NCBI RefSeq assembly: GCF_056712565.1
Contig: NZ_CM160072.1
DNA: 64,000 bases
Direction: 5' to 3' (one strand)
This document shows, one piece after another, positions 25,901 to 28,900 of this stretch. Every line of letters begins with the position of its first letter. Position 1 is the first letter of the stretch. The position numbers were made by a program.

Positions 25901-28900
25901 CTTCAGCCACGGTTGCAGCGTGCTCACGTTTTAACCCAGCCTGGCAGAGTTTATTCTCGATTAGCTGGTGGAGTGTTTCCCGACTGATTTTCATCTGTCT
26001 TCCTTTTTAACGACGATGTGAAGCATGACTGCAATTAACATACAGGGAAAATATCTGGATTATGTGATCCAGACAGGCAAAAAAATATAGTTAGAATTTA
26101 TTTGATAATCCGCTCGCTTTTAACCTGGTTTTTAAAACAACCACGCTTATTAAAAAATAACGCGTAATAGCCCGGCGGTTATTTGAATTCTTTTGTTAAT
26201 AATCCCTGTGTGATATTCATCACCTTATTTACTCGTTGTCATCGATACCGTAATCGCCACATTAACACTGCTCGTGCAATTGCCATGGGTGCAATTTTTA
26301 AGGAGTTGTTATGATCCACGCCTTTATTAAAAAAGGGTGTTTTCAGGATTCGGTCAGTTTAATGATTATTTCACGAAAACTCAGCGAATCAGAAAATGTT
26401 GATGATGTTTCCGTAATGATGGGTACGCCCGCCAATAAAGCGTTATTAGATACTACAGGTTTCTGGCATGACGATTTTAATCACGCCACGCCGAACGATA
26501 TTTGCGTGGCAATTCGTAGCGAAGCGGCGGATGCGGGGATCGCGCAGGCGGTTATGCAGCAGCTTGAAGAGGCGCTAAAACAACTGGCGCAGGGTTCAGG
26601 CAGCAGCCAGGCGTTGACGCAGGTGCGTCGCTGGGACAGTGCCAGTCAGAAATTACCCGATGCCAATCTGGCGCTGATTTCAGTGGCTGGTGAGTATGCG
26701 GCGGAGCTGGCGAACCAGGCGCTGGATCGCAACCTCAACGTGATGATGTTCTCCGATAACGTCACGCTGGAAGATGAAATCCAACTTAAAACCCGCGCGC
26801 GGGAAAAAGGCTTGCTGGTGATGGGGCCAGACTGCGGTACGTCGATGATTGCCGCCACGCCGCTGGCTTTTGCTAACGTGATGCCGGAAGGCAACATTGG
26901 CGTCATAGGCGCTTCCGGTACCGGGATTCAGGAGCTGTGCTCACAGATTGCGCTGGCAGGGGAGGGAATTACTCACGCGATTGGTCTTGGCGGGCGCGAT
27001 CTCAGCCGTGAAGTGGGCGGCATCAGTGCGCTAACGGCGCTGGAAATGCTCAGTGCAGACGAGAAAAGCGAAGTGCTGGCATTTGTTTCAAAACCACCTG
27101 CCGAAACTGTGCGTCTGAAAATTGTTAATGCCATGAAAGCAACTGGCAAACCGACGGTGGCGCTGTTTTTAGGTTATACCCCGGCGGTGGCCCGCGACGA
27201 GAATGTCTGGTTTGCCTCCTCGCTGGATGAGGCCGCTCGTCTGGCTTGTCTGCTTTCACGCGTCACTGCGCGACGTAACGCGATAGCGCCTGTCAGCAGC
27301 GGATTTATTTGCGGTTTGTATACCGGCGGTACGCTGGCTGCTGAAGCGGCGGGATTACTTGCCGGACACCTTGGCGTGGAAGCCGACGATACCCATCAAC
27401 ATGGCATGATGCTGGACGCCGACGGACATCAGATCCTCGACCTGGGCGATGATTTTTACACCGTCGGGCGTCCCCATCCGATGATCGACCCGACCTTACG
27501 CAACCTGTTAATTGCCGATCTCGGCGCTAAACCGCAAGTGCGCGTGTTGCTGCTTGATGTCGTGATTGGCTTCGGTGCGACCGCCGATCCTGCCGCCTCG
27601 CTGGTGAGCGCCTGGCAAAAAGCCTGTGCCGCGCGTTCAGACAATCAACCACTGTATGCCATTGCCACGGTGACAGGCACTGAACGTGACCCGCAATGCG
27701 CTCGCAGCAAATCGCCACGCTGGAAGATGCGGGGATCGCGGTAGTGAGTTCGCTACCGGAAGCCACCTTGCTGGCTGCGGCGTTAATTCATCCGCTCCCG
27801 TCAGCCACACAGCAACACACACCGTCATTACTGGAAAACGTCGCCGTGATTAACATCGGATTACGCAGCTTTGCGCTGGAGCTACAAAGCGCCAGCAAAC
27901 CGGTTGTGCATTACCAATGGTCGCCAGTCGCCGGCGGCAATAAAAAACTGGCTCGTTTATTAGAACGTTTGCAATAAGGGGTTCCCATGTTTACATCAGT
28001 GGCGCAAGCCAATGCTGCGGTTATCGAACAAATTCGTCGCGCTCGTCCACACTGGCTGGATGTGCAACCGGCTTCTTCACTTATCAGCGAACTAAACAAG
28101 GGCAAAACACTGCTTCACGCCGGGCCGCCAATGCGCTGGCAGGAGATGACCGGGCCAATGAAAGGGGCGTGCGTGGGCGCATGTCTGTTCGAAGGCTGGG
28201 CGAAAGATGAAGCGCAGGCACAGGCAATGCTGGAGCAGGGGGAAGTGAACTTCATTCCTTGTCACCATGTGAATGCTGTCGGGCCAATGGGTGGCATTAC
28301 TTCTGCCAGTATGCCGATGCTGGTGGTCGAGAACGTGACCGACGGCAACCGGGCGTACTGCAACCTCAACGAAGGTATCGGAAAAGTGATGCGTTTTGGC
28401 GCTTACGGCGAAGATGTCCTGACTCGCCATCGCTGGATGCGCGATGTGTTAATGCCAGTATTAAGCGCGGCGCTGGGGCGCATGGAGCGCGGTATCGATC
28501 TCACGGCAATGATGGCGCAGGGCATTACCATGGGCGATGAGTTCCATCAACGCAATATTGCTTCCTCTGCACTGTTAATGCGTGCGCTGGCTCCACAAAT
28601 TGCTCGCCTCGATCATGATAAACAGCACATTGCGGAAGTGATGGATTTCCTCAGCGTGACCGATCAGTTCTTCCTCAACCTCGCGATGGCCTACTGCAAG
28701 GCGGCGATGGATGCAGGCGCGATGATCCGCGCAGGCAGCATCGTTACGGCTATGACCCGCAACGGCAATATGTTCGGGATTCGGGTCAGCGGGCTGGGTG
28801 AACGCTGGTTTACGGCGCCTGTAAACACTCCGCAAGGTCTGTTTTTCACCGGCTTCTCGCAGGAGCAGGCGAACCCGGATATGGGCGATAGCGCGATTAC

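What the first reader, a model, noticed from the sequence alone, without database searches (positions are those of the whole stretch)
27660..27745. Frameshift in fdrA while ylbE is intact (opposite of the K-12 state as I recall it)
fdrA is split into two overlapping frames whose combined span is one nucleotide short of an in-frame gene. ylbE, which I recall being frameshifted in K-12 MG1655, is a clean 419-aa ORF here. fdrA, ylbE, ylbF and ybcF form the cluster linked to anaerobic allantoin/oxalurate catabolism (oxamate carbamoyltransferase plus carbamate kinase). Reciprocal inactivation in different lineages would suggest the pathway is repeatedly lost, or that one component is dispensable.
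Basis: partly seen in the sequence, partly recalled or inferred. Interest (0 to 1): 0.5.

Follow-up and report, generated by a model that had tools for sequence, protein, structure and literature searches.

The report
Private one-base deletion truncating fdrA (allF)
One C is missing from the fdrA (allF) gene in this E. coli sequence and in no other genome checked, so it is either a very recent knockout of one enzyme subunit or a sequencing error, and it is not a sign that the allantoin pathway is repeatedly lost.

Summary
fdrA (now called allF) spans 26311..27977, which is 1667 nt; intact relatives have 1668. The missing base is one C of GCCGC, which reads GCGC here, at 27698/27699 (codon 464 of 555). 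ylbE, ylbF and ybcF are intact.

The window comes from an ST95-type (phylogroup B2) E. coli. Its nearest complete genome is APEC O1, which differs by 5 SNPs and this one gap over 64 kb.

The deletion is a singleton:
- None of the 4822 complete E. coli genomes that match the surrounding 71-mer carries it.
- No metagenome contig carries it, while 39 carry the intact allele.
- The truncated protein is absent from a collection of about 15 billion proteins.

The 3' part of the gene shows no further decay. There is no slippery heptamer and no Shine-Dalgarno sequence for the downstream ORF, so programmed frameshifting or a functional split gene is unlikely.

The contrast with K-12 is out of date. ylbE is an intact 419-aa gene in the current MG1655 reference, and the old lesion was peculiar to the earlier reference sequence.

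The four-gene operon has exactly the same length in 58 of 60 genomes sampled across the species. All three of allF, allG and allH are experimentally required for oxamic transcarbamylase activity.

Verdict: an ordinary allele found in one record only. A real recent null mutation and a consensus error are about equally likely, and only the reads can decide. Interest is low.

The parts
26311..27744 (+). fdrA/allF 5' reading frame: codons 1-463 are native, followed by 14 out-of-frame codons (ARSKSPRWKMRGSR) and TAG.
   Evidence: ORF list, translation, comparison with intact FdrA. The Pfam domains CoA_binding (193-287) and Ligase_CoA (336-491) show that the break falls inside the second domain.
27698..27699 (+). 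Deletion junction: one C of GCCGC is missing, leaving GCGC, at codon 464 (Arg, CGC).
   Evidence: Pairwise alignment with UTI89. This is the only gap against APEC O1 in 64 kb and against UTI89 in 9.7 kb.
27699..27977 (+). fdrA/allF 3' remainder (codons 464-555 plus stop), now in the -1 frame. The mechanical ORF starts at an ATG at 27696 that is out of frame in intact genes.
   Evidence: The sequence is identical to intact relatives, so there is no secondary decay. No Shine-Dalgarno-like sequence lies upstream of ATG 27696.
27987..29246 (+). ylbE/allG, intact, 419 aa.
   Evidence: annotated in UTI89, APEC O1 and MG1655 at the homologous position.
29257..30072 (+). ylbF/allH, intact, 271 aa.
   Evidence: Identical to UTI89; coordinates transferred from the annotation.
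30069..30962 (+). ybcF/allK carbamate kinase, intact, 297 aa.
   Evidence: Identical to UTI89; coordinates transferred from the annotation.
24945..25994 (-). allD ureidoglycolate dehydrogenase, the step upstream of AllFGH. It is intact and carries the window's only other private change, a synonymous SNP at 25281 (Val238, GTC to GTT).
   Evidence: None of the 5245 matched genomes shares the SNP.

Best explanation
A single cytosine is deleted at codon 464 of allF (fdrA), and only in this one genome. As the sequence stands, translation yields a 477-residue product. That product lacks the last ~28 residues of the CoA-ligase-type domain and the 64-residue C-terminal tail.

AllF, AllG and AllH are all needed for oxamic transcarbamylase. 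The predicted result is therefore a null allele that blocks the conversion of oxalurate to oxamate plus carbamoyl phosphate. Ureidoglycolate would instead flow to the glyoxylate branch, as in a K-12 allF deletion mutant. The strain would lose the third ammonia and the ATP obtained through carbamate kinase. Loss of translation over the last 233 nt may also lower expression of allG, allH and allK by polarity.

The event is very recent, on a terminal branch, and says nothing about the lineage.

Shown here: the deletion, its position, its uniqueness, and the intact neighbouring genes.
Inferred: loss of function, the polar effect, and that the deletion exists in the cells rather than only in the record.
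For: - The deletion is located exactly.
- It breaks the Pfam Ligase_CoA domain (336-491), and the solved FdrA structure 3DMY was determined from a construct spanning residues 82-555.
- Codons 464-555 are under purifying selection between B2 and K-12 (dN/dS about 0.16, against 0.10 for codons 1-463; small counts).
- It is the only indel against APEC O1 in 64 kb, although the window holds 70 homopolymer runs of 6 or more bases and 19 of 7 or more, all of which agree. The deleted base sits in a 2-base run. The window therefore does not look like an indel-prone assembly.
- The genome has a real terminal branch. It carries a private synonymous allD SNP and a SNP at position 98 shared with a 14-genome subclade.
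- The allF deletion phenotype and the three-gene requirement come from PMC11326118.
Against: - A singleton with no secondary decay is exactly what a consensus error also looks like.
- The local context GCCGCTCGC is G+C-rich.
- The neighbouring gene ylbE in the old MG1655 reference is a precedent for a one-base lesion that was peculiar to one reference sequence.
- No reads are available.
- No experiment shows that truncation at residue 463 abolishes activity.
Confidence: 0.5

Rival explanations
1. Consensus or assembly error: the cells have an intact 1668-nt allF, and the missing C exists only in the deposited sequence.
For: - The allele is absent from all 4822 complete genomes that match the 71-mer, from metagenome contigs (0, against 39 with the intact allele) and, as a protein, from about 15 billion sequences.
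- The 3' part of the gene is otherwise identical to intact relatives.
- The operon is strongly conserved in length.
- The old MG1655 ylbE lesion is now annotated as intact.
- Apparent breaks of these genes on metagenome contigs carry 1-23 gapped positions per gene, mostly on contigs with about 2x coverage, so artefactual frameshifts of this operon are common in public assemblies.
Against: - It is the only indel in 64 kb against APEC O1, and all long homopolymers agree.
- The site is a 2-base run, not the usual hot spot for 454, Ion, Nanopore or PacBio errors.
- The genome has other genuine-looking private and subclade variants.
Confidence: 0.42
2. The gene still gives functional AllF. This could happen by -1 ribosomal frameshifting in the 27690..27744 overlap. 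It could also happen by making the N-terminal 463 residues and the C-terminal 92 residues as two polypeptides that assemble.
For: - The -1 frame is open from 27690 and the ORFs overlap by 49 nt.
- A tRNA-Pro slip from CCG (27691) back to CCC (27690) is conceivable. It would give a full-length protein with two substitutions (inference from the sequence).
- The deletion happens to bring an ATG at 27696 into frame with the rest of the protein.
Against: - There is no X XXY YYZ heptamer in the overlap and no Shine-Dalgarno-like sequence in the 20 nt before ATG 27696.
- No other genome needs a frameshift here, so nothing could have evolved to promote one.
- The break lies inside a single structural domain.
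- Unprogrammed slippage is typically around 1% or less (general knowledge).
Confidence: 0.04
3. One reading: fdrA here and ylbE in K-12 are reciprocal, lineage-level inactivations, showing that the oxamate branch is repeatedly lost or that one subunit is dispensable.
For: - An older MG1655 reference did carry a ylbE lesion.
- A few genomes lack most of the operon: 16 of 5426 have partial coverage, 3 have none, and one example is strain A30.
Against: - The fdrA deletion is private to one record.
- ylbE is intact in NC_000913.3 and in other K-12 stocks.
- 58 of 60 genomes sampled across the species have an operon of exactly 4653 nt.
- Overall dN/dS for fdrA is about 0.11.
- Each of allF, allG and allH is required.
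Confidence: 0.03

Closest known systems
allF (fdrA, b0518) of the allFGHK operon: subunit of E. coli oxamic transcarbamylase (Kim & Kim 2024, PMC11326118); crystal structure PDB 3DMY
   Same: Same gene at the same locus, downstream of and divergent from allECD. It is 100% identical to ST95 fdrA apart from the missing base and about 97% identical to K-12. It has the same CoA_binding plus Ligase_CoA architecture.
   Different: The reading frame is broken at codon 464, so the 555-aa protein cannot be made by ordinary translation.
ylbE lesion in the earlier MG1655 reference sequence (U00096.2 era)
   Same: A small lesion that includes a missing base, in the same operon, found in one reference sequence only. 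Other stocks and strains have the intact ancestral gene (PMC4759930, PMC3045373).
   Different: It affects allG rather than allF. It combined a SNP with a missing base. It is now annotated as intact in NC_000913.3. It is therefore not an example of a lineage that lacks the enzyme.
Strain-specific pseudogenes caused by one-base indels in E. coli (PGAP 'frameshifted' pseudogenes)
   Same: A single-base indel in an otherwise conserved gene, no further decay, confined to a terminal branch.
   Different: Nothing distinguishes this case. That it occurs in a 2-base run rather than a long homopolymer is unremarkable.
Programmed -1 ribosomal frameshifting (dnaX type)
   Same: Two overlapping frames that together encode one protein.
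   Different: No slippery heptamer, and no conservation of the frameshift in any homologue.

Membership tests
allF/fdrA gene of the allFGHK (oxamic transcarbamylase plus carbamate kinase) operon | Sequence orthology to E. coli fdrA (b0518) | tested here: met
   1667 of 1668 positions identical to fdrA of UTI89, APEC O1 and ATCC 11775, all annotated as fdrA. Aligns to MG1655 b0518.
allF/fdrA gene of the allFGHK (oxamic transcarbamylase plus carbamate kinase) operon | Operon context: divergent from allD-allC-allE and followed by ylbE, ylbF and ybcF | tested here: met
allF/fdrA gene of the allFGHK (oxamic transcarbamylase plus carbamate kinase) operon | Uninterrupted 555-codon reading frame | tested here: not met
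   1667 nt; frame broken at codon 464.
allF/fdrA gene of the allFGHK (oxamic transcarbamylase plus carbamate kinase) operon | Oxamic transcarbamylase activity together with AllG and AllH | not testable with these tools
   Needs an enzyme assay or HPLC measurement of oxamate, as in PMC11326118.
Programmed -1 ribosomal frameshift site | Slippery heptamer X XXY YYZ in the overlap, in the upstream frame | tested here: not met
   A scan of 27640..27744 found none, only two weak Y YYZ contexts.
Programmed -1 ribosomal frameshift site | The frameshift requirement is conserved among homologues | tested here: not met
   0 of 4822 complete genomes and 0 metagenome contigs carry the deletion.
Programmed -1 ribosomal frameshift site | Downstream stimulatory RNA structure or upstream internal Shine-Dalgarno sequence | not tested
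   Not pursued, because the two features above failed.
Lineage-fixed pseudogene (reductive loss of the pathway) | The lesion is shared by related genomes | tested here: not met
   All ST95 relatives are intact, including members of the 14-genome subclade that shares SNP 98 (for example ZJ3920 and Z0117EC0054).
Lineage-fixed pseudogene (reductive loss of the pathway) | Secondary decay, meaning further stops or indels in the gene or its partner genes | tested here: not met
   No other difference from UTI89 across fdrA-ylbE-ylbF-ybcF.
Sequencing or assembly indel artefact | Reads disagree with the consensus at the site | not testable with these tools
   No reads are available, and the source assembly could not be identified.
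Sequencing or assembly indel artefact | Typical error context (a long homopolymer) and other indels nearby | tested here: not met
   The site is a 2-base run. It is the only gap against APEC O1 in 64 kb, despite 70 runs of 6 or more bases. This lowers the likelihood of an artefact but does not exclude one.
   NC_000913.3 annotates ylbE (b4572) as an intact 1260-nt CDS. K-12-type genomes in the sample have the full 4653-nt operon. The literature describes the lesion as specific to the old reference.

The most novel reading that the evidence does not exclude
The deletion is real and was selected. In this reading, an ST95 extraintestinal or avian pathogenic isolate gains from switching off the oxamate branch, which sends ureidoglycolate carbon to glyoxylate/glycerate instead. 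It would be a natural counterpart of the laboratory finding that fdrA alleles re-route allantoin flux (PMC8550087). The nearby private allD change would then mark recent change at the locus.
Probability: 0.03. Interest if true: 0.3.

Novelty: already known. Interest (0 to 1): 0.07.

Why it matters
It matters very little beyond annotation. If the deletion is real, this one isolate cannot make oxamic transcarbamylase. It should then excrete more oxalate and no oxamate when using allantoin anaerobically, which is a minor strain-specific metabolic defect. If it is an error, the record needs a one-base correction.

The useful outcome is negative. There is no evidence for recurrent or reciprocal loss of the allFGHK operon in E. 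coli. The operon is almost universally present and constant in length, and the K-12 ylbE 'pseudogene' that prompted the idea is no longer in the reference genome.

Tried and rejected
- **Exact protein look-up.** I searched for the 477-aa and 93-aa products among about 15 billion proteins to identify the source genome or other carriers. Neither is present.
- **Metagenome scan.** I scanned metagenome contigs for the 31-mer spanning the deletion and found 0 hits. The positive control with the intact 32-mer gave 39 hits.
- **Full-window comparison with a subclade genome.** I tried to compare all 64 kb with Z0117EC0054. The last 25 kb are identical except for a T8/T9 tract. The genome carries a lambdoid prophage at the tRNA-Arg site, so the rest is not colinear, and I stopped there.
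- **Programmed frameshift.** Rejected: no slippery heptamer and no conservation.
- **Functional split gene.** Rejected as unlikely: there is no ribosome-binding site, and the break lies inside a domain.
- **Two pathway hits as evidence of real decay.** I asked whether the second private change, in allD, was a second loss-of-function hit in the same pathway. It is synonymous. Two events within 2.4 kb of each other in a 64-kb window have about a 7% chance probability, so this is not evidence of anything.
- **Literature.** A search for ylbE + glpR + gatC + MG1655 found nothing. A looser search found the relevant papers.
- **Not attempted.** I did not predict a structure or run a deep homologue search for the C-terminal 92 residues. 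Their cost was not justified for an ordinary lesion.

Full report
**The observation.** The mechanical ORF list shows 26311..27744 (+, 477 aa) and 27696..27977 (+, 93 aa), overlapping and in different frames. Their joint span is 1667 nt. A megablast of that span against 5426 complete E. coli genomes hits 5410 of them. The best hits are all ST95-type strains: UTI89, APEC O1, S88, IHE3034 and ATCC 11775. Each is identical except that it spans 1668 nt, and each is annotated as fdrA.

Alignment with UTI89 locates the difference. CAATGCCGCTCG in UTI89 reads CAATGCGCTCG here, so one C is missing at window 27698/27699. At the protein level, 463 native residues are followed by 14 out-of-frame residues and a stop. 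From its second residue on, the downstream ORF is exactly residues 464-555 of FdrA.

ylbE (27987..29246, 419 aa), ylbF and ybcF are intact. Across 9.7 kb the window differs from UTI89 only by this gap and one SNP in allD.

**Where the window comes from.** Against APEC O1 the whole 64 kb shows 5 mismatches and 1 gap.
- Three of the mismatches, in the cus region, are private to APEC O1. Strain Z0117EC0054 is identical to the window over the last 25 kb except for a T8/T9 tract at about 41185.
- The base at position 98 is shared with a 14-genome ST95 subclade.
- The remaining SNP, at 25281, is a synonymous Val238 change in allD. None of the 5245 matched genomes has it.

The window therefore belongs to a genuine, distinct ST95 isolate that is not in the RefSeq complete-genome set. 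It has two private changes in 64 kb: the silent SNP and the fdrA deletion.

**How common the deletion is.** A 71-base query centred on the deletion matched 4822 complete genomes. None was identical; every hit listed has the extra base (71 query bases span 72 in the record), and no hit reached 99% identity. The 31-mer spanning the deletion occurs in no metagenome contig, while the intact 32-mer occurs in 39. Neither the 477-aa nor the 93-aa product exists among about 15 billion catalogued proteins. The allele is a singleton.

**What the gene does.** fdrA, ylbE and ylbF have been renamed allF, allG and allH. Together they encode oxamic transcarbamylase, which converts oxalurate to oxamate plus carbamoyl phosphate. 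ybcF (allK) is the catabolic carbamate kinase. Single deletions of allF, allG or allH each abolish oxamate formation and raise oxalate. Only all three genes together restore activity. The active enzyme was cloned from MG1655 DNA (PMC11326118; PMC9843812).

FdrA has a CoA_binding domain (193-287) and a Ligase_CoA domain (336-491). The solved structure 3DMY was determined from a construct covering residues 82-555. The break at codon 464 lies inside the second domain and removes 92 residues. Those residues are under purifying selection between B2 and K-12 (dN/dS about 0.16, small counts). I infer that the truncated product is inactive and that the allele is null. That inference has not been tested.

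**Could the gene still work?**
- The overlap holds no X XXY YYZ heptamer.
- The 20 nt before the ATG at 27696 have no Shine-Dalgarno-like motif, unlike the starts of fdrA (AAGGAG) and ylbE (AAGGGG).
- No other genome requires a frameshift here, so no programmed mechanism could have evolved.
- Low-level spontaneous slippage, for example tRNA-Pro moving from CCG to CCC at 27690, cannot be excluded. It would be marginal.

**Real mutation or record error?**

For a real mutation:
- It is the only indel against APEC O1 in 64 kb, despite 70 homopolymer runs of 6 or more bases, all of which agree.
- The site is a 2-base run, not a typical platform error hot spot.
- The genome has other credible private and subclade variants.

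For an error:
- It is a singleton with no secondary decay.
- The local context is G+C-rich.
- The neighbouring ylbE in the old MG1655 reference sets a precedent.
- Broken copies of these four genes on metagenome contigs carry 1-23 gapped positions each and sit mostly on contigs of about 2x coverage. This shows how often such 'frameshifts' in public assemblies are artefacts.

The sequence alone cannot settle the question. I put a real mutation at about 0.5 and an error at about 0.4.

The K-12 contrast does not hold today. NC_000913.3 annotates ylbE (b4572) as an intact 1260-nt gene. The earlier reference differed from other MG1655 and K-12 stocks by a SNP and a missing base (PMC4759930). The corresponding change in strain NCM3722 'restored an intact ancestral gene' (PMC3045373).

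Across the species the operon matches at 80% coverage or more in 5407 of 5426 genomes. In a sample of 60 genomes spread over the whole ranking, 58 have exactly 4653 nt. One alignment stops 2 nt short, and one genome has lost most of the operon. Nothing here indicates recurrent or reciprocal loss, and the experiments show that no subunit is dispensable.

**Verdict.** This is an ordinary one-base lesion in a well-characterised gene, confined to a single record. It is either a recent strain-private null allele of allF or a consensus error. It is of low interest and is not novel.

Noticed in passing
window 25281 (allD, minus strand): A private synonymous SNP (Val238, GTC to GTT) that none of the 5245 matched complete genomes has. 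It is the window's only other singleton and lies 2.4 kb from the fdrA deletion.
   Followed up: yes
window 41185-41193: Intergenic poly-T tract between ompT and ybcH. It is T9 here and in APEC O1 but T8 in Z0117EC0054, which is otherwise identical over the last 25 kb. This is ordinary homopolymer length variation.
   Followed up: partly
window 51295, 53599, 55962 (cusC and cusA region): Three SNPs separate the window from APEC O1. The window carries the allele also found in Z0117EC0054, so these changes are private to the APEC O1 record.
   Followed up: partly
window about 38018-39092: tRNA-Arg followed by prophage remnants: a frameshifted integrase fragment and a tail-fibre-assembly fragment, as annotated in APEC O1. 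In Z0117EC0054 the same site holds a full lambdoid prophage with a second ompT copy.
   Followed up: no
window about 63349-64000 (minus strand): The 3' part of fepA. PGAP flags fepA as a pseudogene with an internal stop in both APEC O1 and Z0117EC0054. I did not check whether the stop lies inside the window.
   Followed up: no
protein cluster returned for window:27987-29243: The 90%-identity cluster containing this YlbE also lists 555-aa FdrA proteins, and its representative is an FdrA. This is probably a clustering artefact, or is bridged by fused fdrA-ylbE gene calls (the two genes are 9 nt apart).
   Followed up: no
loci L009, L017, L018, L022, L024, L028, L037 (metagenome contigs): Copies of fdrA, ylbE, ylbF or ybcF with 1-23 gapped positions per gene, mostly on contigs of about 1.6-3x coverage. 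They look like assembly noise rather than natural pseudogenes.
   Followed up: partly
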